A stretch of 64,000 bases of DNA from a virus (IMGVR_UViG_3300032046_003126:23182-87181), one strand, 5' to 3'; shown: positions 13,694-57,493, counted from the stretch's first letter. Numbers and translations: made by a program. The notes: generated by a model not told the origin, from the letters alone.

Positions 13694-14643
13694 TGGCAGG
13701 AATATTAAATTCAAAAGAAAGAATTCTTGATACACTTTTAACAGAAGAAGGTCGGCGGCAATTAGCAGCGGGTAATTTTCAAGCTGTATATTATAGTTTT
13801 TCTGATGGTTTATCCATATATCAGACTGATACTATCGTTTCTTCAAGTATATCTTCTGTGCCTGTTTTAGATGAAACATATCGTCTCTGTTTTGAGGCGA
13901 CTTCTTTACCACAAGACCAGGTTACATTTGAAGCCGATGATTCAGGTAAATTATTTAATCCAAAAAATTCTCCAATTGATGTTATGTCGGGACAAATTTT
14001 TTCTGGTTCTATTTTGGTTACAAGTTCACAATTCGCAAGTACAGCAGGTACATTGTTGAGTTCTTCACTAGAAAGTTTTAAAAATTTAAGAATACTATCA
14101 AGTCCTAATAATTTTCAAAATCCAAACATGGAATTTTTATTAAGTAATAAAAATATAAAATTTAATATAACAAATAATAAACCAATTCATAGCGAAGATA
14201 CACAAAAGATATCCATAGACAAAGTGGAAAGTTTTTTCATGGATAAAAGACTTTCTCATATTCCAAATTTTTCATTCTTACCACCAGTAAATTCGGCACA
14301 AACTGGCAGAACAACTTCATCCCTTGGTGATTTCAAGAATATTAATCAAGAATCTTTTGAATCATATAGTGATCTTGAAAAAGAATTAGAATATTTTTCT
14401 AAAAATGGGTTTGAAGAAATAATTGAATTTACCGAGACTACTACTCAAAATAATATATTTGCTCAGTTTTTTGAATTATCAGATAATTCTGTTGTAAAAC
14501 TTGATGTTATCGACTTTGGACAATTCACAGTTTCTAATCAAAAAGAATTTTTTATAAAACATGTATTTTTTGCGGGTAAGATATTTATAGATAATTTCGG
14601 AGCGACTACTTTTATTAATATGTTTACTTTAGTTTTTGAATAA
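13693..14643 (+). CDS. Tail-collar-like structural protein (paralogue of 23291..24004)
   Basis: N-terminus ILDTLLTEEGRRQLA...YYSFSDG resembles ILDAVLTSTGREFLS...KFAVSDD of 23291 and the N-terminus of tail-collar fibre domains. Confidence 0.55.
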   Translation: MAGILNSKERILDTLLTEEGRRQLAAGNFQAVYYSFSDGLSIYQTDTIVSSSISSVPVLDETYRLCFEATSLPQDQVTFEADDSGKLFNPKNSPIDVMSGQIFSGSILVTSSQFASTAGTLLSSSLESFKNLRILSSPNNFQNPNMEFLLSNKNIKFNITNNKPIHSEDTQKISIDKVESFFMDKRLSHIPNFSFLPPVNSAQTGRTTSSLGDFKNINQESFESYSDLEKELEYFSKNGFEEIIEFTETTTQNNIFAQFFELSDNSVVKLDVIDFGQFTVSNQKEFFIKHVFFAGKIFIDNFGATTFINMFTLVFE

Positions 14644-14646
14644 AAT

Positions 14647-20000: not shown

Positions 20001-20651
20001 AGGAATTTGTTTTTAAAAGATTATGAAAATATAAATTCGGTTAAAAATATAAACATTAACAATATAATTTCTAATGAAAAATATTCGTTTTTAACAAATG
20101 AACAAAAAATTGAAATGTTTAATAATCACTTGGAGAGTATGTTTTTAAAAATTTATGTTAATTTAACATCTGGATTTAAATTAGACGAAGATACATTTTC
20201 GAATGAAGTTGTTGATATATTGGGCAATATGAATCAAGAAGTATATGATTTGATATATGAATATATTACTAATGTAAAAAATTTACAAATGACAAAGACC
20301 GATAATTTTAAAACATTATTAAATGACCTAAATGTATCACAAATAGCAAAAGATATGATTACAACAATGTCTTTCGGTAATCTACTATTTCAGTCAGATT
20401 CAATACGAAAAAAAGTTTTATCTCAAAAAATGTTTGATCGTGTCTTTACTTTAGCAGTTGATGCAGGTAGTTTTGAAATAGATTTTAATAAAACTCTTTT
20501 AACACAATCTGGTAAATCAGCATTTACAAAAGCAAATTTGCAAAATGCAATAACAGTAAAAAATAACAGATATTATATGAAACAAAAAAACGAAACTGAT
20601 TTTATATTTGAAGATTATTTTTTAACAATTGAAAATAATTTCAATGGATAA
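17019..20651 (+). CDS. Large hypothetical virion protein
   Basis: 1210-aa ORF coupled within the structural operon; no recognised motif. Confidence 0.45.
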   Translation: MNSLKNRLFKIRQRLGATAVHVRPQFNRTETPIGTNVNTIANTTLVIATPEIRTLNQNTLDLTNLAVTNNSFDIVEKNGISVYRPEIISINEFNSVFEQETNNLKDTVSDTNQILELINYQIQTNSLREDTLKKMLTEMNSSSTNFKLNKISSEFNSKLLTLQKVATFYGYLIQQTNIVKNSLEIKDIPNSLYGPGNLSIKEFYNRYMQFSEGEYNSFTETKVFNQLISDMRNVLESFSYSLFDTVDSDRNENHEPFKIDKSYTLPNNFSFKPSMLTSNGTEIKNASNNATLTSFLSSLPPEPSDRIKVLCNFLSKELRVSKALGRPDIRNILSSKFNQSDTNNPFDNIIGEVGDTIFEKPLGENSLASFSYVRTGDKVVLPFENTYIDSTDLNTSNIYIPGSSYFGDSILNVSSNINNNTFNYEPFSNYANNFNDKLTSALSVLNKMFEFDNINSSLTQESIIDLFLVSFKQAIEKMVDNTHPNRDQMFVLSLFKLASTNTKLKNHLFDFCILILLAISTPDNERKIFEHIKRDIPTINSLFSFKDKTTIVNLESGISFLYPYVMELAEIIEDNVFEILYNNPNFRNTRLNGTLDTSSVSFTGTTFFRNDSNNHILRFIYGDIKDTLIKLLNTSGLASVSLVQVFSEIMTKLDVAASEGSNSLYLIEDNTYRTRYNFLGTSSIMLVVFEILCSFTKFLDINYFKSTDVLNGNINTNTTTNLAIFNHISLILSENSRNTTNSITTTNANIIIPGNSSATSSLITTGTFNGTVVSVLTGIAPNVSITVIREKLKSEDLYIKNALNILSVINTRLKDALSSVIVSFSNEHTRNFIVENNIRPEELKILTNPSQLRTSFWILNKYQNAVLDANTKNLDKILISDSIKKSVKNAMLLLLKESKFLKGTKDIKLFSIGIPSGFTNQMVNRIDRNNINNSTFLSKEFDVIKVKLYKRDLRYDDIIFIPKIFYFDLSLYPMNFYDIVKINEVQEITWSIFSRNLFLKDYENINSVKNININNIISNEKYSFLTNEQKIEMFNNHLESMFLKIYVNLTSGFKLDEDTFSNEVVDILGNMNQEVYDLIYEYITNVKNLQMTKTDNFKTLLNDLNVSQIAKDMITTMSFGNLLFQSDSIRKKVLSQKMFDRVFTLAVDAGSFEIDFNKTLLTQSGKSAFTKANLQNAITVKNNRYYMKQKNETDFIFEDYFLTIENNFNG

Positions 20652-20660
20652 ATATATTAT

Positions 20661-22475
20661 ATGGCAATTTCACTACCCTCAAAAAAAATATTAATAGCAG
20701 ACGTACCAGAAGTAGAAAATTTTAACTCTGAGTTTTCGTATAATTTTTTTATTGAGGACGAACAAACAAACGACACTGGAAAATCCCCTTTTTCATTTAT
20801 TGAAAACATAAATGATAATACTAGTGATTCTAAATTTATTAATAGTAAAAATTTTCAAAACAAAATACCAAGGGCAATTAAATTTACCTGGAAACCCATT
20901 GTGTTAAACACTGATTCTAATGTTGTGACAAAATATTATAACGATATTAAAGTAGCAAATAAAGTATCAATAAAAAATAATTTATCAAAAATAAAATATG
21001 AAAATGAATTTATTCAAAAAAGCTTCACTTCTATAGAAACACAAGATATTGAAAAAGATAAGAAATTAAATTTCTTTATTGAAAGAGCTTTAAGCGAATT
21101 TAAAATTAGAAACAATGGTTCTTTGTTGGATGTTTCAAAAGAGTTAAATGAAAAATTATCCACCGATGTATCAAGTGATTATATATCTAATATTTTAAAT
21201 AATTTAAGTAATAATGGAATAAATTTTACAAATACTAATAAAAAAGAAATAGTCTCCAAAACCATTATAGATAAAATAAAAAATATTAAATTAAACAATG
21301 TGATAAATAATAAAGTTTTAACTCATTTAATAAATTCTTCAATTGAAAATATAACAAATGTTTATCAAACTGACACTTCACAATTTATTGAAAGAATCAA
21401 CCAGATACAAAATCATGCCATCAAAACGGATTATTCTTCTCTAATCTCGGAAGGAGAATATGATTTATTTATTGATGATTATTTGGTTGTAAAAAAAGTA
21501 GATAATAATTTTGATTCTATTATGATTCCAATTGGATATGTAATTGAAAAATATGAAATATTAAAAGATAATTCCAAAATAAAAAAAGAATCTATAATAA
21601 TAGAAAATCCAGCTACTTCTGTAGCTTATGATACTCAAATAAAATATGGATCAAAATATTCATATAATATAAAAACAATTTGTTATATCGAAACATCTGC
21701 AATAGAACAAGAAACCGGGGAAATAATATCTTTATCGTTTTTGTTATCTTCAAAAAATTCAGAAGAAAAAAGTGTTATTTGTACTGAAATGGTGGCTCCT
21801 CCTAGTCCTGCTGATTTTGTATGTCATTGGGATTATGTAAAACAAAACTTAACAATAATGTGGAGTTTTCCACCAAATCAACAAAGAGATATAAAATATT
21901 TTCAAGTATTTCGCAGACGAACAATAACTGAACCATTTGAACTTATCAAAATGTATGATTTTGATAATAGTGAAATTTTATCAACTAAATTTGAAACTCC
22001 TGAAAAATACTTAGTAGAAAAACTTACTAATCCAAAAACATATTATACAGATTTAGATTTTAAAAAAGAATCCAAATTTATATATTCTATTTGTTCTTTA
22101 GATGCCCACGGCTTGACTTCGAATTATTCAATTCAATATGAAATTTCTTTTGATAAATTCAAAAATAAAATAAACAAAAAACTAGTCTCATTATCAGGAG
22201 CACCAAAATCATATCCTAATATGTATCTAAATCAAGATACTTTTGTTGATGTTATTAAAGATTCAAATCACAAAAGATTAAAAATATATTTTAACCCAGA
22301 ATACTTAGAGGTAATTGATAACAATTATAATGATTTAAAATTACTAAGAACAAAAACAGATGCTTTATATAAATTACAAATTATCAATATAGATTTACAA
22401 CAAGAACAAGATGTTATTATAAAATTAGAAGACAGAAGAACGACAAGGGAAACTGATATACTTAAAATAATATGA
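20661..22475 (+). CDS. Structural protein with FN3-like domains
   Basis: YDTQIKYGSKYSYNIK; PPSPADF..HWDY...MWSFPPNQQRDIKYFQVFRR; YSICSLDAHGLTSNYS. Confidence 0.5.
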   Translation: MAISLPSKKILIADVPEVENFNSEFSYNFFIEDEQTNDTGKSPFSFIENINDNTSDSKFINSKNFQNKIPRAIKFTWKPIVLNTDSNVVTKYYNDIKVANKVSIKNNLSKIKYENEFIQKSFTSIETQDIEKDKKLNFFIERALSEFKIRNNGSLLDVSKELNEKLSTDVSSDYISNILNNLSNNGINFTNTNKKEIVSKTIIDKIKNIKLNNVINNKVLTHLINSSIENITNVYQTDTSQFIERINQIQNHAIKTDYSSLISEGEYDLFIDDYLVVKKVDNNFDSIMIPIGYVIEKYEILKDNSKIKKESIIIENPATSVAYDTQIKYGSKYSYNIKTICYIETSAIEQETGEIISLSFLLSSKNSEEKSVICTEMVAPPSPADFVCHWDYVKQNLTIMWSFPPNQQRDIKYFQVFRRRTITEPFELIKMYDFDNSEILSTKFETPEKYLVEKLTNPKTYYTDLDFKKESKFIYSICSLDAHGLTSNYSIQYEISFDKFKNKINKKLVSLSGAPKSYPNMYLNQDTFVDVIKDSNHKRLKIYFNPEYLEVIDNNYNDLKLLRTKTDALYKLQIINIDLQQEQDVIIKLEDRRTTRETDILKII

Positions 22476-23266
22476 CTATATTAAAAATAAAAAAAGGTAA
22501 CAATGGTGGAAAAATTTTTTTATTAACTTGTAATAATTGTTTAAAACATTTTGAAAGAAAATATAAAAAAACAATTAACAAACAATATCATTATTGCAAT
22601 GTTTCTTGTTCAATTAAAGCCAGGCATCAAATTTTTAAACAAAACAATATTAGTTTAATTGAAAAAGCTCATAAAACATATTTAGAAATGTGTATCTCTG
22701 ATCCTACTTTAAGGAAAAAAGTAACAAAAAAAGCTTTGAAAACTGTAAATGAAAAATATAAAGTATCAAATGTTTCTTTGCTTGATGACGTAAAGAATAA
22801 AAAAATATCTTCTTATAGAAAAAACTTTGGCGTTGATCATCCGATGTATTTGGATATAATAAAATCTAAAGTATATGATACTATGAAAAAAAACGGAACT
22901 TATAAAAAAATATCAAAACCAGAAATGTTGTTTAAATTATACATTGAAGAAAATTATGGACAACATAATATTGAATGTCAAAAACGTATAAACAATTGGA
23001 ACATAGATTTTTATATTAATACTCTAAATACATACATTCAAATAGACGGTATTTATTGGCACGGCATTGGAAAATCAGACGAAGAAATTACAAACAATTT
23101 TAATAAAAGAAATAAATCTATACTAAATACAAAAAATATTGATAAAAAACAAAATTTTTGGTTTGAAAAAAATAATTTGAGATTAATTAGAATAACAGAT
23201 GTTGGGTTATTACAAAATATCAAGCAAGGGTGTTTTAACAAGATATCTAAAACTCTAGAAACGTGA
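22472..23266 (+). CDS. Free-standing Vsr/DUF559-like (PD-(D/E)xK) homing endonuclease
   Basis: N-terminal CNNC..YCNVSC zinc module, KYKV/NFGVDHP repeats, SKPE...IDFYI...IQIDGIYWHG...LIRI nuclease core. Confidence 0.75.
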   Translation: MTILKIKKGNNGGKIFLLTCNNCLKHFERKYKKTINKQYHYCNVSCSIKARHQIFKQNNISLIEKAHKTYLEMCISDPTLRKKVTKKALKTVNEKYKVSNVSLLDDVKNKKISSYRKNFGVDHPMYLDIIKSKVYDTMKKNGTYKKISKPEMLFKLYIEENYGQHNIECQKRINNWNIDFYINTLNTYIQIDGIYWHGIGKSDEEITNNFNKRNKSILNTKNIDKKQNFWFEKNNLRLIRITDVGLLQNIKQGCFNKISKTLET

Positions 23267-23290
23267 AAAATAGGCTGAAAAAGGTGAAAA

Positions 23291-24004
23291 ATGGGATTCC
23301 TACAGAATGATTCAAATAATATTATACTCGACGCAGTGTTAACAAGCACTGGCAGAGAATTTTTATCTAGAAATGATGGAAGTTTTAGTATTATAAAATT
23401 TGCAGTATCCGATGATGAAATTGATTATGGTATTATAAAAAAATTCGGTAGAACGGTTGGGCAAGAAAAAATTGAAAAGAATACACCAATTTTTGAAGCT
23501 CTAACTAATGGAAATTTGGCTCAAAAATACAGATGTTTGTCTGTATCTAATCCTAATTTAATTAGATTACCAAGTATGTCTTTGGTTGGTGAAGGTGTTG
23601 ATAGTAATAACAATATTGTAGCTATAGGAAACACGACAATTAAAAGGCGCACCCTCAACGTATCACAAACCATACAAGACGAACAAACCATAGATGTAGA
23701 ACTTAGAGATCAGGCTTTTGTTGTAGAGATGTCAAATCTATTTTTACAGGTGCTAGGATCGGCACCAGACAACATTGATGCTCAACAGAGAGCAACATAT
23801 ATCCTAATAAGAGATGCCTCGGAAACGTCTCTGGGTGGCTCTAAAGTAACCTTTACAATTTCTACAAAAGCAATCAGTTTAAAAGAATTTCAAATATATG
23901 GCACAACTTACAATAAAAGTCTTATTAGTACATTTGTAAAAATATATGGAATTCAATCTGGTACAGTTACAGAATTTGAAGTACAAATAAATAAAGATTC
24001 GTGA
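23291..24004 (+). CDS. Conserved tail-collar-like structural protein
   Basis: MGFLQNDSNNIILDAVLTSTGREFLSRNDGSFSIIKFAVSDDEIDY...PIFEA. Confidence 0.6.
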   Translation: MGFLQNDSNNIILDAVLTSTGREFLSRNDGSFSIIKFAVSDDEIDYGIIKKFGRTVGQEKIEKNTPIFEALTNGNLAQKYRCLSVSNPNLIRLPSMSLVGEGVDSNNNIVAIGNTTIKRRTLNVSQTIQDEQTIDVELRDQAFVVEMSNLFLQVLGSAPDNIDAQQRATYILIRDASETSLGGSKVTFTISTKAISLKEFQIYGTTYNKSLISTFVKIYGIQSGTVTEFEVQINKDS

Positions 24005-48642: not shown

Positions 48643-49488
48643 ATGTCAAAAGAACTTATTAAACAATTAATAAAGGAGTTATTAAAAGAAACTCCAATAG
48701 AAGATATTACTAGAATAGGCGACTTTAGTAAAAGACATTCAATTGTTAATCCAGTAGACAGAGCTTTGTTGTCTTCTCCAAAAGCAGAAGTTAAAATAAG
48801 AAAAATTTGGGAAAATACACCTGGAATATTTAATCTTGTTTTCATAAACGATCCAAGAGTAAAAGGTGAAGAGTTTAAAGAAGTTGGAGAAGTTTCGGAA
48901 AATTTCATTAGAACCAAGATGAAAATATCTGAAGAAGAACTTCACATAGACCCTGAAGCTTGTACCATCATATACACTAATAATCGTGGAGATGAAAGAG
49001 TAATGGCAACTGGATGGATTTTAGCACATAGACTTTCTCATAGCCTTTCTAGGGGAAATCCAAGTTATTGGTCAAGTTTCTCAACTCACTTAACAAACAT
49101 TTTTAAAAATTTACTTAATGATGTTTACGGCATACAAATGAGTACAAGCTCCATTGTTCCAAGAGATGAACAACTTTTAATGAAGTTGGCAGCACAACAA
49201 ATAGGAACAATGAAGTCGGCGAGAGATTCTAATTTAAGAAATTGGTATGAATTTGGTCACGAATTGTTTGCTCAATATTTACTCACAGGTTCGATTAAAT
49301 TTAACAAATTGCCTGACTCCTTGGTTACTGATGTACAGGCGTTTGGAAGAAAAAGAAACACTAAAGTATTCGATACAGATACACAAGAAACTTACAATAG
49401 ACATGACCTTGAATATTTCGCTAGTATTATAGAATCAGAGATTGAGTCTATTGTTGAATCTATTCAAGGTAAAATATTTGTGATGTAG
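48643..49488 (+). CDS. Leader-bearing protein with zincin-like HRxxH motif
   Basis: N-terminal LIKQLIKELLKE; WILAHRLSH...EFGHELFAQY. Confidence 0.55.
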   Translation: MSKELIKQLIKELLKETPIEDITRIGDFSKRHSIVNPVDRALLSSPKAEVKIRKIWENTPGIFNLVFINDPRVKGEEFKEVGEVSENFIRTKMKISEEELHIDPEACTIIYTNNRGDERVMATGWILAHRLSHSLSRGNPSYWSSFSTHLTNIFKNLLNDVYGIQMSTSSIVPRDEQLLMKLAAQQIGTMKSARDSNLRNWYEFGHELFAQYLLTGSIKFNKLPDSLVTDVQAFGRKRNTKVFDTDTQETYNRHDLEYFASIIESEIESIVESIQGKIFVM

Positions 49489-49511
49489 TTTTTTAATTAA
49501 TTCTGAATTAC

Positions 49512-49530
49512 ACAAATATTTAATATTTGT
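49512..49530. promoter_or_regulatory. Palindrome ACAAATATT-T-AATATTTGT upstream of a leader-family gene
   Basis: Perfect 9-bp arms; centre 35 nt before ATG 49556; repeated at 50747-50775. Confidence 0.65.
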
Positions 49531-49555
49531 AAAAAGGTTTTTAGAGAGAAATTTT

Positions 49556-49942
49556 ATGAAAATTACAGTTAAACAACTTAGAAAAATTATTAAAGAAGAA
49601 TTATCAAAACATTCATTTAATTCTATTGATGACATATCAGATGAAAACGACATAAACCAACAAAGTGATTTTGAGAAATCCTTAAACGTAGAAGATTTCT
49701 CAGTATACGACACAATTTTATCAAAAATACGAAAATCACCAGAAATGAAACAAAGATTTTTATCTAAACAACCAGCAGAGATTGCGCGTGAATATAAGCT
49801 TGATACAAGTCAACGTTTGCTTTACCTTATTTCTAATTTACAGCAACAAGTAATAGAAGATGATTTTGATTCAGACAACCCCTACAGACACCCTGAAGGG
49901 ACTTATCGTCTGTCTAAAGATGACGAATGGGTAGAAGTCTAA
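49556..49942 (+). CDS. Leader-bearing acidic hypothetical protein
   Basis: MKITVKQLRKIIKEELSK N-terminus. Confidence 0.65.
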   Translation: MKITVKQLRKIIKEELSKHSFNSIDDISDENDINQQSDFEKSLNVEDFSVYDTILSKIRKSPEMKQRFLSKQPAEIAREYKLDTSQRLLYLISNLQQQVIEDDFDSDNPYRHPEGTYRLSKDDEWVEV

Positions 49943-50038
49943 TAGACTGTCTATTTTAGCTACTATTGGTAGGTGTTTATGATTACAATCACAATAGGTA
50001 CTCACCTAAAAGAATATTACGTTTTAATAGATTAAAAC

Positions 50039-50074
50039 AAAAAAAGATTCCCTTTTTAAGAGGAATCTTTTTTT
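50039..50074. terminator. Bidirectional intrinsic terminator
   Basis: A7-GATTCC...GGAATC-T7 hairpin between convergent genes. Confidence 0.75.
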
Positions 50075-50217
50075 ATTATATTTTTTCCTAAAGTAGTTTT
50101 AGGCTGCCATTGCATATTCTTGCCCTGCCGGGATCCAATTGTCAAAATTAATTATATCTTAACAAACTAAAAGTTTAAACTGTTGAGTTAAAATTATTTA
50201 TATATTAACCAGAAATT

Positions 50218-50727
50218 TTATCTAATTTTTCTTACTGCTTGTAAATATTCTTGCTCGGAATATTCTTCCCCATTCAAAAACCAATATTTTTTGCCATTGC
50301 TATGTTCAAGTGCTGGACCATCAAGCCTATGACGTTTTCCATTCAACCACCACTGTTTTGTTCCATTATCATAAATTGCCGGGCCGTCTTCTCTGTGCAG
50401 TTTTCCATTCAAATACCATTGGTTATTTCCATCTGCCCATTCTCTTGCTGGACCATCTTCTCTGTGATATTTGTCATTCAAATACCACTCTTTATATCCA
50501 TTTGCCCATTCAACAGCCGGACCATCTTCTCTGTGAAGTTTTCCATTTAAATACCACTGTTTTGTTCCATCTGCCCATTCAATTGCCGGACCATCTTCTC
50601 TGTGAAGTTTGTTATTCAAATACCATCCTGTGACTAAAGCACCATTTCCATCACGAGTTGGTTTCTGAATTGGTTTTGATAATTCTTCTTTAATAATCTG
50701 TCTAAGTTGTGACTTTGTAATTTTCAT
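50218..50727 (-). CDS. Leader-bearing protein with WYLNGKLHREDGPA repeats
   Basis: MKITKSQLRQIIKEELSK then five ~23-aa W.LNG..HR.DGPA repeats; ATG at 50727 preferred. Confidence 0.8.
   Translation of the reverse strand: MKITKSQLRQIIKEELSKPIQKPTRDGNGALVTGWYLNNKLHREDGPAIEWADGTKQWYLNGKLHREDGPAVEWANGYKEWYLNDKYHREDGPAREWADGNNQWYLNGKLHREDGPAIYDNGTKQWWLNGKRHRLDGPALEHSNGKKYWFLNGEEYSEQEYLQAVRKIR
50270..50630 (-). repeat. Coding tandem repeat, ~69-bp period
   Basis: Recurring ggaccatcttctctgtg...ttcaaatacca units. Confidence 0.8.
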
Positions 50728-50746
50728 AATTTTTTTTCCAGGCAAT

Positions 50747-50775
50747 ATTTCACAAATATTAAATATTTGTGAAAT
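50747..50775. promoter_or_regulatory. Palindrome ATTTCACAAATATT-A-AATATTTGTGAAAT between divergent leader-family genes
   Basis: Perfect 14-bp arms; centre 34 nt before ATG 50727 on the minus strand. Confidence 0.7.
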
Positions 50776-50820
50776 TTAGAATTATCATTTTTTATTAACA
50801 TCGTAAATATAGTTACTTTT

Positions 50821-51261
50821 ATGTTAATAAAAGAATATATAAAGTTGTTAATAAAAGAAGAACTTAACAAAACAGATAAGACAGAAAAAGATTTAGAATT
50901 GTTTTTAAAAACTGTTGTACCTAATTTAATACAACACTGTATGATTAGAACAAATTCTGTAAAAGTCTGTGGATATATTTCGGAAGATTTTAACAAACTT
51001 GCATTAGATGCCGGGTTTGATAGTAGAGTAATGTCAAATTCTAGACATTTTACTAATTTAGTAAGATTAGTAGATGGCGACTATGAAGTTGACCTATCTA
51101 ATATTCAATTCCAATTCTCTGAGGATAATGTAGAAAAATACAACGACGAAGCCGGGAAAGATATATATTCGTATCACGGCGAAACAATGGAGACTCAGAG
51201 ACTTTTGGATATTGTTAAAACCGATCCATTTAAAGCAATAAAAGTAACCAAGTTAGTTTAA
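50821..51261 (+). CDS. Leader-bearing protein with papain/transglutaminase-like Cys-His-Asp motif
   Basis: MLIKEYIKLLIKEELNK; CGYISEDF...HFTNLV...EVDLSNIQF. Confidence 0.55.
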   Translation: MLIKEYIKLLIKEELNKTDKTEKDLELFLKTVVPNLIQHCMIRTNSVKVCGYISEDFNKLALDAGFDSRVMSNSRHFTNLVRLVDGDYEVDLSNIQFQFSEDNVEKYNDEAGKDIYSYHGETMETQRLLDIVKTDPFKAIKVTKLV

Positions 51262-51341
51262 ATTTCTTTTTTGCAAATTTGACAGCTTTATATTATGATG
51301 TGAACATAGTTCAACATTTATTACAAACTATATTTATACTC

Positions 51342-51965
51342 ATGAAAATAAAAATAAACAAAAAAGAAGAAGGCGCAGTAATGATGATCGTTGTGTTGTT
51401 GTTGATGATTGTAACTGCATCTGGGGTTTATGCCGTTCACGCGACAACCTCAGAGCTTCGTGGATCTGGTGCAACAAGAAATGCATATCAAGCTGAAATC
51501 GCCGCTTCATCAATAACAGAAGCCGCAATTGATTTGACAAACAGGATTGGTCCTGGCAATCTATATAGACGAGCAATTAATAATTCCCCCTTGAATCTCT
51601 CAGGAGTAGAAAATCCATCAAGTCTGTCTTCGGGAATGATTGGAACCCGATTATATGAAACAGATATCAATAATAATTTACCAATTAATATTATTGGTTC
51701 AAATAGCTTAAACAATGGTGTACCACAAACTATTCAAGGAGTTGTTGATGTTTATGATATGTATAGGTTTACTGGTTCTATTGCTGGAAATAGGTCCGAT
51801 GGGCAAGGTCATCTTTCTTATTTAAAAGCAACATATACGGGCCGCACAAGAGTTACCTTGCCAATTCTAGAAGGAAACTCTGTTTCTCCACAAGAAATTC
51901 GAGAACAACAGACTACAACATCTACGACTAGACTCATAGCAACATCTGGTCCATTCAATTTTTAA
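51342..51965 (+). CDS. pilX: Type IV pilus minor pilin, PilX-like
   Basis: KKEEG|AVMMIVVLLLMIVTASGVYA prepilin-type leader and hydrophobic helix, then SELRGSG..R...QAEIAA PilX-like N-terminus; adjacent to PilY1. Confidence 0.75.
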   Translation: MKIKINKKEEGAVMMIVVLLLMIVTASGVYAVHATTSELRGSGATRNAYQAEIAASSITEAAIDLTNRIGPGNLYRRAINNSPLNLSGVENPSSLSSGMIGTRLYETDINNNLPINIIGSNSLNNGVPQTIQGVVDVYDMYRFTGSIAGNRSDGQGHLSYLKATYTGRTRVTLPILEGNSVSPQEIREQQTTTSTTRLIATSGPFNF

Positions 51966-51998
51966 TTCTCTTTATATGTAACACAAGGTTCCACTATT

Positions 51999-54900
51999 AT
52001 GAAAAACAATTCCGCCATTAATATAATTTTCTATTCATTTCTTTTATTTGTTTTATCATTGACGGCAATCAACAAAGCACAAGGACAAATAACAACACCT
52101 GATGCTAGAAATATTGCTCCTGCTGTTATGTTATTATTGGATAGTTCTGGTTCTATGGAACGAGTGAACAATTGCATTTGTACGACGAGTAATTGTAACG
52201 AATGCTTGCCTACTTGCTCAAATACAAATACTGGAGTCAATCAACAGAATCGTTGGTCTGTTATTGTTCAGGCACTTGGTGGAGATTATTCACCTTTCAA
52301 ATGTTTACAAACCACTCGTCCTCTTTCTACTCCAGATTTTGGTTATAATATTCCATTTTATTCTTTTACTGGTTCCCAATCAGTTACTAATGGAATTTTA
52401 GATACATATGGAATAAGAGTTAGGTTTGGTTTAATGACATTTGATAATACACCAATGGTTGTTGGTGCATCTTCTTTGTATACATCTTCAAATTATCTTG
52501 CAAATAATACTACGACAAATTGGCAAGGAGACTTTTCTTATGGGCCAAATCGAGTTTTTTCTTTACCTGGAATCATGTTTGCATACATGATTAATAATGG
52601 TGCAAGAAGTGAAAATGCCTTAAATCCAACTTATGGAAGATTGTTTTCTACAGGCTCAAATTCTACAACCTCTCAATCAAGAGCTGCACTTGTAAAAGCA
52701 GAACTTCCTCTTATTCGTCCATATGGCGGTAGACCAATTGCCGCAATGTTACATGATTATGAATATTATCTAAATAATCATGTAGATGTTGTTGATGACC
52801 CATATAATGATTGTAGACAACAAATCGCAATTCTTATTGTTAATGGATATCCGAATAGTGATATGCGTGGAAGTCCTTATTTTTGTGAAGATACATCTTC
52901 AGGTGGCGTTTGTCCATATGATGAACCTGAGATAATCGCTGCAAGAATTTCTAATTCATCTAATAGAAAAGTTTATGTTATTGGACTTGGAAATGAAGTT
53001 GTTTCTGACCCAACACTTGTTTCAAAATTAAACTTTATTGCTCAATACAGCGGTACAAACAATGCATTGTTTGCAAACAATGCCTCTACACTAAGAACAC
53101 AAATAGCCTATATATTAGATATAACCGCCACAGGAACAACATCTCGTTCCATTCCAACAATTAGTTCTACAGCGGCTTTGATAAACAATAGTTCACCTGT
53201 TCAATCTCAATATAATTCAGGATTTACTCTTGGAACAAATGGTGGACCATATAACGGCATTCTCGAAAGACACAGAACACATTGTGTTAATACAACTCCC
53301 ATTGCTCAAACAATTGATAATACTGATAGATTTCATATGATTTTGAATCAAAGAATTTCTAGTAGAACACTTTATACAATTGTACCACGAAGTGCAACAA
53401 ACACAACAGGATATCTAATCGGCATAGGAAATGCCATTCCGCCTCTTAGTTCTACTTCTGGTGGTGGTGGTAATAGCTCAAATCAAACACATGGAAATGG
53501 TGGAAGTAGTTGCAGAACTCCAGGACCAGGAAATACTAATCAAAATAATTCTTCTGTTAGTCCAACTGCTTCTGAAAGTGGCCTAGTTTTAACAGCATTT
53601 AATTCAAACAATGTTACTGCTGCGCATCTTGGATTAACTTCTGGTTCTTCTGCTGTAAGAAATGCTGAAAGGGATAGAATTGTAAATTGGATTCATGGAG
53701 CAAACAATATTAGAGGCACTCTTGTTTCAAGACTTGGAGACATATATCACTCTTCTCCAATTGTTGTTGGCAGACCTCAGTTTAGTATTCCAGATGAATC
53801 ATATAATGAATTCAAACAATTGCCGGTTGTAGCAAACAGACCTTCTGTTTTATATGTTGCATCAAATGATGGAGTTTTACATGCATTTATAGCAGAAACT
53901 ATTACTGTAACTGCTGGTCCATATGCCGGTAGGACATTCACAGCCGGTGAAGAATTATGGGGATTTATTCCACCATATGTTTTACCAAAACTTCAAAGTG
54001 CAACATCGGTACATACTTGGACAGTAGACGGAACTCCATATGTCAGAGAAGTATTTTACAGAAAACTTCCTGGGCAAGCTGCCGATGCAAACATATATCA
54101 TACTGTTTTAATTGTTCCTTTGGGAAAAGGCGGTGGAGCATATATTGCTCTTGATATAACTAATCCATTAGTCCCAATATTTTTATGGCAATTTACTTCT
54201 AATAACATGGGTACAACTATGGGAGCACCTGCAATCGCTCAAGTGTTAATTTCCGTTAACGGAAATCTTGAAGAAAGAGCTATGGCAATATTGCCTTCTG
54301 GATATAAAGATCCTATTGACCCAAATACTTGTGGTCCAACAATTAATGGAGATTCTTGGAGTCAGCCACTTGGTTGTAGTTCAAACGGAATTGGTACACC
54401 TCCTCTAAATGCCGGAACACAAAACGCTGTGAATCATCATAGATGTTGGAACGTTGATGGAAGACAGGTATACTTTATTGATCCTTCAACTGGTCAACTT
54501 ATTAAGTCAATTGGAGATACTGTTTTCAATGCTCCAATGACTGGTGGTATTGGTTTATATTCAGGAGATACAGGAACTATTACCACAAGAGCATTTATGA
54601 CAGATGCAGATGGGTTCCTTTGGAGATTTGATTTGTCTAGTTCTAATCCTTCCAATTGGTCTGCTCTGCAATTTGCTGATCTGTTTGTTGATTTGCATAA
54701 TCAATATCCGAATGTTGGACAACCAAGTTATTTTGCTCCAGTAATAAGTACAAATGCTGCTGGTGAACTTGTTGTTATTCAAGGAACTGGAAATATTGAT
54801 TATCTTGATGGAACTGCTCCAAATAGAATTGGTTCATTTACAGAAACAATGAATGGTAATACTGTTGGAATTAGAACAAATTGGACTATTGCTTTACCTT

Positions 54901-55376
54901 CAGGCGAACAAATGACCGGACCAATTCAACTTTATGACAGTACAGCTTATTTTACAACCTTTTCTTCTACTGGAACTTCTACAAATACTTGTCAATTAGG
55001 TACAAGTTATATTTGGGGAGTTGACTTCACAGAAGCTTCTAGTGGTTCACCAACACCACGATTACAAACATCTGCATCAACATACGCTCAAAAGGTTTCA
55101 GCGGGGAATAACGTGCTTCTTGGAGCAGCACTTGCACAAGAACTTAGTTGCACAACAACAACTCCTATTGTTACCTATGATTCATACGTTGGAGGAAATA
55201 TATCTGGATATAATATAACTGGTTCTGGTGGAGGAGGCTATAGAATGTTTGGATTAGTTGGAGGCATTTCTTCTTCAGCTATTACAAATGGAAGTTCTAT
55301 TGGTGAATTTAATAGAACTTTAGAGAGTCCAGCAAACTATACGAGAATAGATGGATATGTTGGCAGGGCCGAATAA
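51999..55376 (+). CDS. pilY1: Type IV pilus tip adhesin, PilY1/PilC-like (vWA plus beta-propeller)
   Basis: Sec signal peptide; LLLDSSGSM, RFGLMTFD vWA; LGDIYHSSP, YVASNDGVLHAF, GEELWGFIP, VDGTP, ALDITNP, LWQF, DADGFLWRFD PilC propeller motifs. Confidence 0.88.
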   Translation: MKNNSAINIIFYSFLLFVLSLTAINKAQGQITTPDARNIAPAVMLLLDSSGSMERVNNCICTTSNCNECLPTCSNTNTGVNQQNRWSVIVQALGGDYSPFKCLQTTRPLSTPDFGYNIPFYSFTGSQSVTNGILDTYGIRVRFGLMTFDNTPMVVGASSLYTSSNYLANNTTTNWQGDFSYGPNRVFSLPGIMFAYMINNGARSENALNPTYGRLFSTGSNSTTSQSRAALVKAELPLIRPYGGRPIAAMLHDYEYYLNNHVDVVDDPYNDCRQQIAILIVNGYPNSDMRGSPYFCEDTSSGGVCPYDEPEIIAARISNSSNRKVYVIGLGNEVVSDPTLVSKLNFIAQYSGTNNALFANNASTLRTQIAYILDITATGTTSRSIPTISSTAALINNSSPVQSQYNSGFTLGTNGGPYNGILERHRTHCVNTTPIAQTIDNTDRFHMILNQRISSRTLYTIVPRSATNTTGYLIGIGNAIPPLSSTSGGGGNSSNQTHGNGGSSCRTPGPGNTNQNNSSVSPTASESGLVLTAFNSNNVTAAHLGLTSGSSAVRNAERDRIVNWIHGANNIRGTLVSRLGDIYHSSPIVVGRPQFSIPDESYNEFKQLPVVANRPSVLYVASNDGVLHAFIAETITVTAGPYAGRTFTAGEELWGFIPPYVLPKLQSATSVHTWTVDGTPYVREVFYRKLPGQAADANIYHTVLIVPLGKGGGAYIALDITNPLVPIFLWQFTSNNMGTTMGAPAIAQVLISVNGNLEERAMAILPSGYKDPIDPNTCGPTINGDSWSQPLGCSSNGIGTPPLNAGTQNAVNHHRCWNVDGRQVYFIDPSTGQLIKSIGDTVFNAPMTGGIGLYSGDTGTITTRAFMTDADGFLWRFDLSSSNPSNWSALQFADLFVDLHNQYPNVGQPSYFAPVISTNAAGELVVIQGTGNIDYLDGTAPNRIGSFTETMNGNTVGIRTNWTIALPSGEQMTGPIQLYDSTAYFTTFSSTGTSTNTCQLGTSYIWGVDFTEASSGSPTPRLQTSASTYAQKVSAGNNVLLGAALAQELSCTTTTPIVTYDSYVGGNISGYNITGSGGGGYRMFGLVGGISSSAITNGSSIGEFNRTLESPANYTRIDGYVGRAE

Positions 55377-55407
55377 TTGTTCTTGCGTCTACTATTGGTA
55401 TAGAATA

Positions 55408-56796
55408 TTATTTGTTTCTAGGTTTTTTCTTTTTTGTGCCAAGTTTTTTCTGTCCTGGTGCTGTACTCATACCAAGTGGTAAAGTATATCCAACAATTGC
55501 ACCGCCGCCGACAGCACTAAATTCTTTTAGTTCTTCTTCAACCATTTCTTCAATTATTTGTTTTAAAGCTTTCTTTGATTCATCAATCATACCAAGACCC
55601 ATCATTGGCTTATCTTGATTAAGATTATCTGCCACTTTTTTAACAACTTTTTTAGAATGTTCTGTGTTGGGGTCGTTTTTATCAATATACACTTTATCTA
55701 AGCCTGGTAATGCATTTTTTCTTATTTTATTTGTTGCCAGAGTATGACCAAGTTTGTCTGCTATGTTTTTTTCGCTCATAATTTCTCTTTCTAGTGATTC
55801 GTTTTTAAAAGACTTGTCAGTCCATTCTTCTTGTTCTTCGGCTTTTTCTGGGTCTATTTGACTTTGTATTGATAAATACGTTGCAGGTATTGTTCCTTGA
55901 TAACCCAGTGAATCATATGTGGATAATACTGAGGTATAAAAATTTGGAACTTCTGTGTCTACATATCCATAAGAAATAGAACCATCATACTCGTTACGCA
56001 AAACATCTTCGTCTATTACTAATTTCGAGTAATCTTTTAATGCCGAGCCTTCTACTTTAATCACAATAGTTCTTTCTTCAAAACGATTTGCTAATTCATC
56101 TGCTATTTGTTCGGCATAAGATAAATTTGATGTCAAATAGACAGCATTTCTTAACTTAAGATTAAATTGTGTCCACCCTTCACCTTGTTCTTGTTTTGCT
56201 TCTTTGGAAGGTAATAAGCCTTTAGTTTTTATTGAGGACCAGTTGGAATATCTAGTAGCATGGTACCATGGCATTTGAGTTATAGGTTTTAAGACTTTAA
56301 CTTTGAAAGACTCGTATTCATCAACACCCGAAGTTCTTTCTTTTTTAAATTTGCCTTTAACATTTTTGACATTTTTAATCAAGTTGTTTGCTTGGCCAAT
56401 TGGTTCATATGTTTTTTCCCAAGAATTTTCATCAGTATTTTCAATAACTACTGTTGCATTTAATAATTCAGGTATTTGTTCAATGGCAGATTGAATAGAA
56501 ATTGCTGTTCTTGGGTCAAGTAAAGAACGCTCATTTGGCAAAATTATTGTATGATTTGTTTTATCATAAACAAATAAAGCATCTTTAAAATTAATACTCT
56601 GTGAAGGATCAAAACCACCAACAGTCTTATTTCCTTTTTCTGGCACAAGACTATTTGGATTATACTTGATATAAGGTGTATTGTTTTTTTTCAAATAACT
56701 ATAAAATAATTCTTTAGAATATTCGGGATGTAATTTATAATCTATAGTAGATTTAATTTCCTCAAGAATAAGTTCTTTTAGTTTTAATAATTTCAT
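55408..56796 (-). CDS. Leader-bearing protein with ADP-ribosyltransferase/Tpt1-like domain
   Basis: MKLLKLKELILEEI; WYHAT...SIKTKGLLP...AVYLTSNLSYA...IVIKV; GTIP; second leader-like segment LKQIIEEMVEEELKE near the C-terminus. Confidence 0.6.
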   Translation of the reverse strand: MKLLKLKELILEEIKSTIDYKLHPEYSKELFYSYLKKNNTPYIKYNPNSLVPEKGNKTVGGFDPSQSINFKDALFVYDKTNHTIILPNERSLLDPRTAISIQSAIEQIPELLNATVVIENTDENSWEKTYEPIGQANNLIKNVKNVKGKFKKERTSGVDEYESFKVKVLKPITQMPWYHATRYSNWSSIKTKGLLPSKEAKQEQGEGWTQFNLKLRNAVYLTSNLSYAEQIADELANRFEERTIVIKVEGSALKDYSKLVIDEDVLRNEYDGSISYGYVDTEVPNFYTSVLSTYDSLGYQGTIPATYLSIQSQIDPEKAEEQEEWTDKSFKNESLEREIMSEKNIADKLGHTLATNKIRKNALPGLDKVYIDKNDPNTEHSKKVVKKVADNLNQDKPMMGLGMIDESKKALKQIIEEMVEEELKEFSAVGGGAIVGYTLPLGMSTAPGQKKLGTKKKKPRNK

Positions 56797-56797
56797 A

Positions 56798-57493
56798 TCA
56801 ACTATTATTTCTTTGAGAATTAATATTCGTTATTACTTTTTGTAATTCTTGTAATGAAGTTGTTGCACTTGTATGTAAAATTCCAATTCCACCAGCATTT
56901 ATAAATGGATTAACATATTTTTCTCTATCATCAATTAAAACTGCACCAGGTTTAGCATATTGGCTTTTATTTTTAGTACAATGGAAAGAAGAAAATTTTC
57001 CTGCAAAGTTATTATTCATCCATTGAAGTTTTTCTTTTTCACATATTTCCATGCTGCCATCAATTGGCGCAGTTAATATACCTGGCAAATTACCAGTCAT
57101 TGAAATAACTCCGTCAACAAGTTGTGAAGCATCAGGCATTTGCTGTAGATTAAGAAAAAAACCAGGTTCTCCCGCAACTAGATATTTTTTTGACTTAAAT
57201 TCATTCCATGAATTTTTTAATGCTTTTAATCCTGGGTCTGTTTGAACGCCAGCTAGTGATTTTTTTATTTGTTCATCAGAAAGATTTTTGAACTCTTCAT
57301 TAGAAGACAAGATTTTTTCATATTCTTCTTTATTTTTCTTTAATTGAGCATTATCATAAAAAGAAGTTTCTATATCTGCCAATACACCATCCATGTCAAG
57401 ATATACAACTATTTTTGGAGGATTAGGATATTGAACATTATACAGTTCATTTTCTACTAATATTTTTATATAATTTTTTAATTGCTGTGTCAT
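56798..57493 (-). CDS. Leader-bearing HAD 5'(3')-deoxyribonucleotidase-like protein
   Basis: LKNYIKILVENEL; VYLDMDGVLAD, FFLNL, ILTAP, EKLQW, VLIDD, AGGIGILH. Confidence 0.8.
   Translation of the reverse strand: MTQQLKNYIKILVENELYNVQYPNPPKIVVYLDMDGVLADIETSFYDNAQLKKNKEEYEKILSSNEEFKNLSDEQIKKSLAGVQTDPGLKALKNSWNEFKSKKYLVAGEPGFFLNLQQMPDASQLVDGVISMTGNLPGILTAPIDGSMEICEKEKLQWMNNNFAGKFSSFHCTKNKSQYAKPGAVLIDDREKYVNPFINAGGIGILHTSATTSLQELQKVITNINSQRNNS

What the first reader, a model, noticed from the sequence alone, without database searches (positions are those of the whole stretch)
51330..55376. Phage-encoded type IV pilus tip module (PilX + PilY1)
Seen: a PilX-like prepilin and a full-length 1125-aa PilY1 (signal peptide, vWA, PilC propeller) form a two-gene unit among phage genes. 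They have AT-biased third positions like the rest of the genome and an ATATTTA motif just before the pilX ATG. No other pilus genes are in the window. Known: PilY1 and minor pilins form the priming/tip complex of type IVa pili, which are common phage receptors. Inference: the phage may replace or poison the host pilus tip (superinfection exclusion, receptor switching, altered motility or adhesion). From recall, the Cys-rich vWA architecture resembles myxobacterial PilY1, which hints at a Myxococcota/deltaproteobacterial host.
Basis: partly seen in the sequence, partly recalled or inferred. Interest (0 to 1): 0.82.

Follow-up and report, generated by a model that had tools for sequence, protein, structure and literature searches.

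The report
Phage-borne pilus tip pair PilX–PilY1
A large AT-rich phage carries intact copies of the two proteins that cap and start bacterial type IV pili, taken long ago from Polyangia myxobacteria, probably to re-cap or block the infected cell's pili; phages were known to carry other pilus parts, not these two.

Summary
Window 51342-51965 encodes a 207-aa PilX/GspK-type minor pilin and 51999-55376 a 1125-aa PilY1. Single-sequence Pfam scores fall below the curated cut-offs. A family profile hits P. aeruginosa PilY1 (3HX6) at E=1.5e-31, and the AF2 model's best Foldseek match is 3HX6.

Both genes have phage-like codon usage (GC3 0.16 and 0.24). Both outer junctions recur in another sediment sample. 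Related contigs keep pilX-pilY1 beside the same phage genes.

The nearest cellular relatives are Polyangia (Myxococcota) fimU-pilV-pilW-pilX-pilY1 operons. PilX and PilY1 share the same nearest bacterial neighbour, so they were captured together.

Several other large-phage contigs carry pilY1 alone, at four separate tree positions (AU p=9e-5). One allele is about 80% identical to a Sandaracinus gene.

The window's clade has lost the vWA MIDAS Asp but keeps the C-terminal peptide that should dock on PilX.

Best reading, untested: an exported PilX·PilY1 dimer joins host PilV-PilW and re-caps or blocks the pilus, as prophage FimU does. The ATATTTA motif is not above chance. The present host is unknown, and no expression data exist.

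The parts
51262..51341 (+). Intergenic region upstream of pilX.
   Evidence: Sequence read. The promoter scan gives 9 of 12 matches, and the number of promoter-like sites in the region is no higher than in shuffles. The motif has 12 matches against 6.8 expected, mostly inside genes or on the other strand. No recurrent upstream 8-mer was found. Function is not shown.
51342..51965 (+). pilX-like gene: a 207-aa PilX/PilK/GspK-type minor pilin. It has Gly at -1 (G11), a hydrophobic N-terminal helix and no Glu at +5.
   Evidence: PilX_N E=6.5e-5, 23.3 bits against a cut-off of 25.5. 20 of 28 aligned family members hit PilX_N. Full-length homologues lie directly upstream of pilY1 in Polyangia loci, with blastp E-values down to 6e-31 (alignment). 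The AF2 model has pLDDT 79.6, with a helix at 7-80 and a 3-4-strand sheet. The six best VIA matches are all pilins or pseudopilins, including GspK 3CI0_K at Z 6.0.
51999..55376 (+). pilY1-like gene: 1125 aa, 16 Cys.
   Evidence: Evidence. A relative with 90% identity (P0001) lies on a 374.5-kb contig.
51999..52085 (+). Sec-type signal peptide, residues 1-29 (MKNNS / hydrophobic core / NKAQG|Q).
   Evidence: Read from the sequence. The n-h-c pattern and the following 'PD.RNI.P' motif are conserved across homologues. In the model, residues 8-21 form a helix at low pLDDT. No signal-peptide predictor was available.
52116..53138 (+). N-terminal vWA-like domain, residues about 40-380. It has an incomplete MIDAS: D48-S50-S52 and T147 are present, but the 'TDG' Asp is replaced by N282. 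A Cys cluster lies at C59, C61, C66, C69 and C73.
   Evidence: MIDAS columns compared. There is a weak CglB hit at residues 33-93, E=5e-5. The model shows an alternating alpha/beta pattern. ESM Atlas part-search gives VWA and PilY1-fragment clusters at scores 0.90-0.93, which is a lead only. The fold was not confirmed by a structure search of the domain alone.
53451..53558 (+). Low-complexity G/N/S-rich linker, residues 485-520.
   Evidence: pLDDT is below 50. Length is variable in the alignment.
53676..55328 (+). PilY1 beta-propeller plus the C-terminal beta domain, residues about 560-1110.
   Evidence: The profile hits 3HX6 at E=1.5e-31. PF05567 matches window 53733-54170 at 21.6 bits. Foldseek gives 3HX6 at E=1.1e-12, TMt 0.56. 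VIA gives 3HX6_B at Z 20.2, rmsd 3.1, 363 residues aligned, 23% identity.
55335..55373 (+). C-terminal peptide (...NYTRIDGYVGRAE), the candidate beta-strand donated to PilX.
   Evidence: The peptide is conserved across the whole family. It is disordered in the monomer model, with pLDDT below 50 at residues 1115-1125. The role is inferred from PMC13533445 and PMC13190605. It was not co-folded here.

Best explanation
The two genes are a phage-resident copy of the top module of the type IVa pilus initiation and tip complex. One is a PilX (PilK/GspK-type) minor pilin. The other is its partner, the PilY1 tip protein.

The pair was captured together from a Polyangia (Myxococcota) fimU-pilV-pilW-pilX-pilY1 operon. 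It has stayed in this AT-rich large-phage lineage long enough to take on phage codon usage.

Inferred mechanism:
1. During infection PilY1 is exported by its Sec signal peptide, and PilX inserts in the inner membrane.
2. The last ~10 residues of PilY1 add a beta-strand to PilX, giving a stable heterodimer.
3. This phage-made dimer is taken up by the host's PilV-PilW pair in place of the host's own PilX·PilY1.
4. Pili of the infected cell then start from, and are capped by, a phage-specified tip, or they are blocked.

The most likely benefit is exclusion of pilus-tip-binding phages, or avoiding loss of progeny on infected cells, as shown for prophage-encoded FimU. The adhesion site of the vWA domain has decayed in this clade, which fits a cap that need not adhere.

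Shown here: gene identity, donor lineage, co-capture, long retention and recurrent exchange in related phages. Inferred: export, dimer formation, docking on host minor pilins and the benefit.
For: Identity.

Conserved cassette:
- A pilX homologue lies directly upstream of pilY1 in nearly all Polyangia loci.
- It is preceded there by GFTLVE-type prepilins, for example L008 6829-9223.

Co-capture:
- The PilY1 trees place the window clade inside Polyangia genes with L009 as nearest bacterial neighbour.
- The PilX tree gives the same neighbour, with clade support 99 and sister support 94.

Retention and constraint:
- Five clade members are intact at 1124-1174 aa despite 40-50% divergence.
- L085 and L101 keep pilX-pilY1 beside homologues of the window's 462-aa and NT5C-like genes.
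- GC3 is 0.16.

Export signature: a signal peptide and 16 Cys.

Docking logic:
- PilK·PilC/PilY1 form a dimer through the last ~10 residues, and PilI-PilJ recognise that dimer (PMC13533445).
- PilX-PilY1 beta-strand complementation is predicted in myxobacteria (PMC13190605).
- The C-terminal peptide is conserved in the phage copies.

Precedent: prophage FimU replaces host FimU and blocks tip-binding phages, and phage PilA-like genes exist (PMC12952977).

Host matching matters:
- Related large-phage contigs carry pilY1 at four separate tree positions. The AU test rejects one clade at p=9e-5.
- L082's allele is 74-81% identical across its three regions to a Sandaracinus MAG gene.
- That same allele is only 43% identical to the allele of the syntenic sister phage L109.
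- L109's flanking genes are 51-84% identical to those of L082.

Tip decay:
- The MIDAS Asp is lost in all five members of the window clade, and DxSxS is also broken in three of them.
- 24 of the 25 other sequences compared keep the Asp; the exception is L103, which has Glu.
- The vWA/propeller identity ratio is 0.73-0.75 within the clade against 0.95-1.08 in the GC-rich comparison pairs.
Against: There are no expression data, because no RNA run holds the stretch. There is no co-fold and no experiment.

The host is unknown. A 30% GC phage on 60-74% GC Polyangia would be an unusually large mismatch. The present host may therefore be another bacterium whose PilV-PilW might not accept this dimer.

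No FimU, PilV or PilW is encoded in the 87-kb fragment. The record is only about 19% of the genome, so more pilus genes could lie elsewhere.

Window and P0001 keep DxSxS and Thr, so the vWA site may still bind metal.

The canonical PilY1 calcium motif is absent. It is also absent from the cellular relatives at the 3HX6-aligned site.

Single-sequence HMM scores are below the curated cut-offs.
Confidence: 0.55

Rival explanations
1. Poison or decoy. The phage PilX·PilY1 dimer binds host PilV-PilW, or the pilus machine, unproductively. No pili are made, which removes the receptor for all pilus-dependent phages and stops motility of the infected cell.
For: The docking logic is the same as in the best explanation. 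The phage PilX branch is very long, with a stem of 0.86. The vWA domain is decaying. Other phages are known to switch pili off, for example Aqs1 (PMC13436744).
Against: A simple blocker would not need a 1125-aa protein kept intact across all domains in five diverged members. The propeller is 56-61% conserved within the clade. Known phage pilus inhibitors are small proteins aimed at the PilB motor.
Confidence: 0.2
2. Pro-pilus accessory gene. The pair gives the infected cell a working alternative tip with new adhesion or surface-sensing specificity. This would change attachment, motility or cell-cell contact in a way that helps phage production or spread. Myxobacteria themselves keep several interchangeable minor-pilin/PilY1 sets.
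For: Myxococcota carry on average two PilY1 homologues per genome, with different N-terminal domains. pilX-pilY1-only units occur in Nannocystales (PMC13190605). The N-terminal domain evolves fast in the phage clade, which could reflect diversification.
Against: MIDAS residues are lost rather than varied, and three of five members also break DxSxS. A benefit to a lytic-type T4-like phage is less direct than exclusion.
Confidence: 0.12
3. Virion or cytoplasmic use. The propeller-vWA protein serves the phage particle, for example as an adhesin, independent of the host pilus.
For: Beta-propeller and vWA domains occur in some viral proteins, but only generic matches were found in BFVD. The gene lies among genes carrying a shared N-terminal leader that another reader suggested is a capsid-loading tag.
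Against: PilY1 has a Sec signal peptide and 16 Cys. PilX has a membrane-type pilin helix. Neither carries the leader. Tailed-phage virions assemble in the cytoplasm. The conserved C-terminal PilX-docking peptide and the pilin partner point to pilus biology.
Confidence: 0.05
4. Passenger DNA or artefact: recently picked-up host genes without function, or an assembly chimera.
For: GC is slightly raised at 0.35-0.37 over 52-56 kb, against about 0.30 elsewhere.
Against: GC3 equals that of the phage genes, so the raised GC reflects amino-acid make-up. Both outer junctions are bridged in another sample. Synteny recurs in L085 and L101. Long intact ORFs persist in an AT-rich genome across five diverged members.
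Confidence: 0.03

Closest known systems
Prophage-encoded FimU (P-FimU) of Pseudomonas aeruginosa F10-like phages, and phage PilA-like proteins (Sztanko et al., Cell Rep 2026, PMC12952977)
   Same: A phage encodes a homologue of a structural component of the host type IV pilus tip. The published function is replacement of the host component to block tip-binding phages.
   Different: Here the components are PilX plus the roughly 125-kDa PilY1, the top two members of the complex, not FimU or PilA. They lie in a T4-like large phage from sediment rather than a temperate Pseudomonas phage. The donors are Polyangia. No function has been tested. Three tblastn queries against 50,697 deposited phage genomes found no true phage pilY1.
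Myxobacterial minor-pilin/PilY1 clusters (Treuner-Lange et al. 2020, PMC7541494; Mahanta et al. 2026, PMC13190605)
   Same: The protein families are the same, and pilX is immediately followed by pilY1. PilY1 has a signal peptide, a Cys-rich vWA-type N-terminus, a propeller and a conserved C-terminal peptide. Length (about 1100-1200 aa) and Cys count (13-22) resemble the paper's Polyangiales-rich class 1.4, though no joint tree was built.
   Different: The genes are encoded by a phage. fimU, pilV and pilW are missing. The codon usage is AT-rich. The MIDAS Asp is lost.
PilK-PilC/PilY1 'licensing' heterodimer of type IV filaments (Ellison et al., PNAS 2026, PMC13533445)
   Same: The phage carries exactly the two partners of that heterodimer, and the C-terminal peptide of PilY1 is conserved.
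   Different: The interaction is inferred and was not modelled or assayed here. The model systems were Neisseria and Acinetobacter.
Small phage inhibitors of type IV pili (Aqs1 of DMS3; PMC13436744)
   Same: Phage-encoded manipulation of the host pilus, with superinfection exclusion as the pay-off.
   Different: The paper describes Aqs1 as a protein inhibitor of T4P function and gives no sign of mimicry. From my own knowledge, such inhibitors are small cytoplasmic proteins that act on the PilB motor. The window encodes exported structural mimics.

Membership tests
PilY1/PilC tip protein (Pfam PF05567 T4P_PilY1) | C-terminal beta-propeller homologous to P. aeruginosa PilY1 (3HX6) | tested here: met
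   The family profile hits 3HX6 at E=1.5e-31. 3HX6 is the top Foldseek hit at E=1.1e-12. VIA gives Z 20.2, 363 residues, 23% identity. Most homologues carry PF05567. Caveat: the single sequence scores 21.6 bits against a cut-off of 28.1.
PilY1/PilC tip protein (Pfam PF05567 T4P_PilY1) | Sec signal peptide (periplasmic or surface protein) | tested here: met
   The n-h-c pattern with AQG|Q is read from the sequence and is conserved in the alignments. No dedicated predictor was run.
PilY1/PilC tip protein (Pfam PF05567 T4P_PilY1) | C-terminal ~10-residue strand that completes the PilX/PilK sheet | not testable with these tools
   The peptide ...TRIDGYVGRAE is conserved family-wide and disordered in the monomer model. 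No multimer prediction was available.
PilY1/PilC tip protein (Pfam PF05567 T4P_PilY1) | Gene linked to minor-pilin genes | tested here: met
   pilX lies 33 nt upstream. Cellular relatives have fimU-pilV-pilW-pilX-pilY1. In the phage only pilX is present.
PilY1/PilC tip protein (Pfam PF05567 T4P_PilY1) | EF-hand-like calcium motif Dx(D/N)xDGxxD in the propeller | tested here: not met
   No motif 1, motif 2 or RGD was found. At the 3HX6-aligned site the family consensus reads ysGdvGtvat. The whole Polyangia subfamily lacks the motif there, so this is a subfamily trait and not a phage change.
PilY1/PilC tip protein (Pfam PF05567 T4P_PilY1) | N-terminal vWA domain with MIDAS (common but not universal) | tested here: inconclusive
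   DxSxS (48-52) and T147 are present, and the 'TDG' Asp is replaced by N282. The Atlas part-search points to VWA and PilY1 clusters, as a lead only. There is no VWA Pfam hit. The domain was not folded alone.
PilX / PilK / GspK-type minor pilin (Pfam PF14341 PilX_N) | Class III signal: Gly at -1 followed by a long hydrophobic helix | tested here: met
   KKEEG|AVMMIVVLLLMIV... G11 is invariant in 28 homologues. The model has a helix at 7-80.
PilX / PilK / GspK-type minor pilin (Pfam PF14341 PilX_N) | No Glu at mature position 5 (a trait of the tip-most pilin, from general knowledge of GspK/PilX) | tested here: met
   The mature N-terminus is A-V-M-M-I. No aligned family member has Glu at position +5.
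PilX / PilK / GspK-type minor pilin (Pfam PF14341 PilX_N) | Match to the PilX_N model | tested here: inconclusive
   E=6.5e-5, 23.3 bits against a cut-off of 25.5. 20 of 28 aligned relatives match at E<=0.01.
PilX / PilK / GspK-type minor pilin (Pfam PF14341 PilX_N) | Pilin fold (N-terminal helix packed on a beta-sheet) | tested here: met
   AF2 pLDDT 79.6. The top six VIA matches are pilins or pseudopilins at Z 5.7-6.2, including GspK. These Z values are moderate, and Foldseek found nothing.
Phage-encoded pilus-component exclusion (P-FimU type) | Phage gene homologous to a host pilus tip component | tested here: met
Phage-encoded pilus-component exclusion (P-FimU type) | Incorporation into the host pilus and block of adsorption by tip-binding phages | not testable with these tools
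   This needs expression in a host and adsorption assays. No RNA holder was listed.

The most novel reading that the evidence does not exclude
A lineage of low-GC large phages infects high-GC Polyangia and keeps a phage-specified pilus cap. Most members carry pilY1 alone and repeatedly swap the allele with the host at one fixed locus, so that it still fits the host PilX. The window's branch escaped this dependence by also carrying its own PilX. That allowed the pair to diverge and the adhesion site of the tip domain to decay. The result would be a 'blind cap' that still licenses pilus assembly but hides the tip receptor from competing phages.
Probability: 0.25. Interest if true: 0.8.

Novelty: new variant of a known kind. 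Interest (0 to 1): 0.62.

Why it matters
Phage-encoded mimics of pilus parts are a very recent discovery (FimU and PilA, 2024-2026). This extends the idea to the tip adhesin itself and its docking pilin, which is exactly the heterodimer now thought to license pilus assembly. It also extends it to large environmental phages.

The finding offers a natural experiment on which parts of PilY1 are needed for assembly and which for adhesion, because the propeller and C-terminal peptide are kept while the MIDAS decays.

It gives a gene-based host link between uncultured large phages and Polyangia/Sandaracinaceae, for which few phages are known.

The repeated host-phage exchange of pilY1 points to an arms race centred on the pilus tip.

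Tried and rejected
The contigs of P0001-P0006, P0008 and P0052 could therefore not be read, and the context of the GC-rich sister sequences stays unknown.
- A single-protein scan of viral contigs found nothing. The alignment scan found three loci.
- hmmscan of PilY1 against Pfam and PHROGs gave no hits.
- Foldseek of the PilX model against PDB gave nothing at E<=0.001.
- phmmer of the vWA region against PDB gave nothing meaningful.
- BFVD gave only generic propellers.
- The ATATTTA / CTATATTTATA motif is not enriched, and no shared upstream 8-mer was found. Promoter-like sites are no more frequent than in shuffles.
- No RNA holder was listed for the stretch.
- Logan contigs are short and shallow. 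No listed piece spans the pilX-pilY1 gap itself.
- The window's SNF2 helicase and baseplate wedge have no match in the records of L082, L083 or L084. Kinship of those phages to the window's phage therefore rests only on the shared N-terminal leader motif.
- The INPHARED hit 'Acinetobacter phage MD-2021a PilY1' is a mislabelled chromosome contig carrying spoT, rpoZ and ribosomal protein genes.
- dN/dS was not attempted. DNA of the 90% relative is unavailable, and the other relatives are saturated.
- The virion-adhesin and chimera readings were considered and set aside for the reasons given under rivals.

Full report
**What is there**

The window is bases 23182-87181 of an 87,181-bp IMG/VR virus record that CheckV rates 19% complete. 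GC is about 30%. It carries a baseplate wedge gene (phrog_219), an SNF2 helicase and an NT5C-type nucleotidase.

Two adjacent + strand ORFs match the finding:
- 51342-51965, 207 aa from the ATG. Homologue alignment supports this start over the upstream TTG.
- 51999-55376, 1125 aa.

**Gene identities**

On its own the small protein hits Pfam PilX_N at E=6.5e-5, 23.3 bits, just under the 25.5-bit cut-off. The large protein gets no hmmscan hit in Pfam or PHROGs. In NCBIfam it gets only weak hits to CglB (5e-5, residues 33-93) and Neisseria PilC (0.043). PF05567 run on the DNA gives 21.6 bits against a cut-off of 28.1.

Family-level evidence is decisive:
- The large protein has 2904 relatives at E<=0.001.
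- Most close relatives carry PF05567.
- A 32-sequence profile hits the P. aeruginosa PilY1 C-terminal domain 3HX6 at E=1.5e-31.
- An AF2 model (pLDDT 80.6, pTM 0.82) has 3HX6 as its top Foldseek hit at E=1.1e-12.
- VIA aligns the model to 3HX6 at Z 20.2 over 363 residues with 23% identity.

The N-terminus reads as a Sec signal peptide. It is followed by an alpha/beta domain with a DxSxS motif at 48-52 and an adjacent five-Cys cluster. An ESM Atlas part-search points to VWA and PilY1-fragment clusters, which is a lead only.

The small protein has these features:
- An invariant Gly at -1, a long hydrophobic helix and no Glu5.
- A pilin-type model with pLDDT 79.6.
- Six best VIA matches that are all pilins or pseudopilins, including GspK, at moderate Z of 5.7-6.2.
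- 20 of 28 relatives hit PilX_N.

**Is it really phage DNA?**

- GC3 is 0.16 for pilY1 and 0.24 for pilX, against 0.16-0.22 for other phage genes. The slightly raised GC of the region comes from amino-acid make-up.
- Contigs from another sediment sample bridge both outer junctions (51027-51603 and 55206-55674) with no differences.
- Independent contig L085 has pilX-pilY1 followed by a 71%-identical homologue of the window's 462-aa neighbour.
- Independent contig L101 has the NT5C-like gene followed by pilX-pilY1.
- A 90%-identical PilY1 lies on a 374.5-kb contig.
- No other pilin is present in the 87-kb record. PF07963 has no match, and the regex scan found only pilX. Only about a fifth of the genome is in hand.
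- The ATATTTA motif is present but not above chance, and no shared upstream motif was found.

**Where the genes came from**

In one genome per GTDB species, 371 relatives were found. The best 80 are labelled almost entirely as Myxococcota or deltaproteobacteria, mostly Polyangia (Sandaracinaceae, Polyangiales), at 30-42% identity.

In nearly all of these loci a full-length homologue of the window's PilX lies directly upstream of pilY1 (blastp down to 6e-31). It is preceded by GFTLVE-type prepilins, which is the canonical fimU-pilV-pilW-pilX-pilY1 order.

In FastTree and IQ-TREE trees the window groups with P0001, P0003 (identical to L101 over the N-terminus read), L085 and P0006 in an AT-rich clade. 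That clade nests inside Polyangia genes, with Polyangiales MAG locus L009 as nearest bacterial neighbour.

The immediate sisters are P0002, P0004, P0005, P0008 and P0052. Their amino-acid make-up is typical of GC-rich genomes, with predicted locus GC of 0.64-0.67.

The PilX tree independently gives a phage clade (support 99) with L009 as sister (support 94). The pair was therefore captured as a unit, host to phage. It was kept through at least 40-50% protein divergence with full codon amelioration.

**Other phages**

- Alignment-based scans found pilY1 on further phage-like contigs with 33-58% GC: L082/L096/L099, L083/L108, L104, L105, L106, L109 and L084.
- None of these has prepilins or pilX next to it.
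- The records of L082, L083 and L084 lack both PF07963 and PilX-family matches. L084's record is 361 kb and 97% complete.
- Several of these contigs share the 'L+.II+EE' N-terminal leader seen on the window's neighbouring genes.
- These phage genes sit at four separate places among bacterial genes. A tree holding them together is rejected (delta lnL 1264, AU p=9e-5). The phage group was named from gene context before any tree was built.

L082, L105 and L109 are collinear phages whose flanking genes are 51-84% identical, yet their PilY1 proteins are only about 43% identical. L082's PilY1 is 74-81% identical across its three regions to that of a Sandaracinus MAG, L017, and its GC3 is 0.52 against 0.92. 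So pilY1 alleles have been exchanged between these phages and Sandaracinaceae at a fixed phage locus.

Three tblastn queries against 50,697 deposited phage genomes found no true phage pilY1. The only hit is a mislabelled Acinetobacter chromosome contig.

**What changed in the window's clade**

- All five members have lost the Asp of the vWA 'TDG' MIDAS position: window N282, P0001 S, the other three G or E.
- Three members also break DxSxS.
- Of the 25 other sequences compared, including the other phage clades, 24 keep the Asp. The exception is L103, which has Glu.
- Within the clade the vWA domain is relatively less conserved than the propeller. The ratio is 0.73-0.75, against 0.95-1.08 in GC-rich comparison pairs of similar divergence, some of unknown context. 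The sample is small.
- The propeller and the C-terminal peptide (...YTRIDGYVGRAE) stay conserved.
- The last 11 residues are disordered in the monomer model.
- The canonical calcium motifs and RGD are absent. The calcium motif is also absent from the cellular relatives at the 3HX6-aligned site.

**How it most likely works**

[quoted passage not shown] Experiments show that the last ~10 residues of PilC/PilY1 add a strand to the PilK/PilX-type pilin. The resulting dimer is then recognised by PilI-PilJ to license fibre assembly (PMC13533445).

The phage carries exactly that dimer. I infer that it is exported in the infected cell, docks on host PilV-PilW, and either re-caps or blocks the pili.

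The best-documented pay-off for such mimicry is exclusion of tip-binding phages, shown for prophage FimU (PMC12952977). The decayed adhesion site fits a cap that need not adhere.

Phages with pilY1 alone must fit the host's PilX, which would explain the repeated allele exchange. A phage that brings its own PilX moves the interface to PilV-PilW. All of this is inference; nothing about expression or function was testable here.

**Open problem**

The donors are 60-74% GC bacteria and this phage is 30% GC. Either such phages tolerate an extreme mismatch, or the present host is a different, perhaps unsampled, lineage. L082's backbone of about 40% GC with a near-host allele argues that the mismatch can be large.

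**Verdict**

This is a new variant of a recently described kind, namely phage-encoded pilus-tip mimics. The evolutionary signal is unusually clear, but there is no functional test.

Noticed in passing
window 48643-51261 and 55408-57493; also L104 8981-9313, 20865-22127; L109 526-1291; L083 4832-5794, 13279-14274; L082 14129-15157, 16594-17436: The N-terminal 'M.IT..QL+.II+EE' leader on the window's genes flanking pilX-pilY1 also heads unrelated proteins on pilY1-bearing phage contigs of 36-58% GC. In every case pilY1 sits among such leader genes, but PilX and PilY1 themselves lack the leader.
   Followed up: partly
window 50218-50745 (-): A 175-aa protein made of MORN-like 'WYLNGKLHREDGPA' repeats behind the same leader. 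It has a weak DUF6745 Pfam hit.
   Followed up: no
L082 1-9967 versus 13424-23417: In this IMG/VR phage contig the 10 kb left of pilY1 is 57-68% GC with few clear ORFs, and the right side is 36-46% GC with phage genes. pilY1 is intermediate. The junction recurs in L096 and L099. This could be a host-derived island or mosaic, and a chimera is not excluded.
   Followed up: partly
L104 13567-13779; L105 931-1212 (-); L109 2869-3126 (-): A small Cys-rich ORF with the motif 'CDAHLA.G.R' lies next to pilY1 in three phage contigs. Function is unknown.
   Followed up: no
L166 (CAKLQH020000003.1 134035-152781): The INPHARED records named 'Acinetobacter phage MD-2021a' are 240-kb contigs. This stretch is ordinary chromosome (spoT, rpoZ, gmk, rpsP, trmD) with a standard pilus minor-pilin operon, so the record appears to be mislabelled as phage.
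   Followed up: yes
L084 (IMGVR_UViG_3300034073_005389, 361,490 bp): A 97%-complete, 33% GC record, classed by IMG/VR as provirus, encodes a distant 1206-aa PilY1-like protein (27% identity). It lies between replication and repair-type genes, including a 1164-aa DNA polymerase III alpha-like ORF and a RecA-like ORF. No pilins were found anywhere in the record.
   Followed up: partly
L050 and L078 (record titles): Two MAG contigs titled Coxiellaceae and Acidimicrobiales carry Polyangia-type pilY1 loci. L050 was placed in the tree, where it nests among Myxococcales genes. These are probably binning or labelling errors.
   Followed up: no
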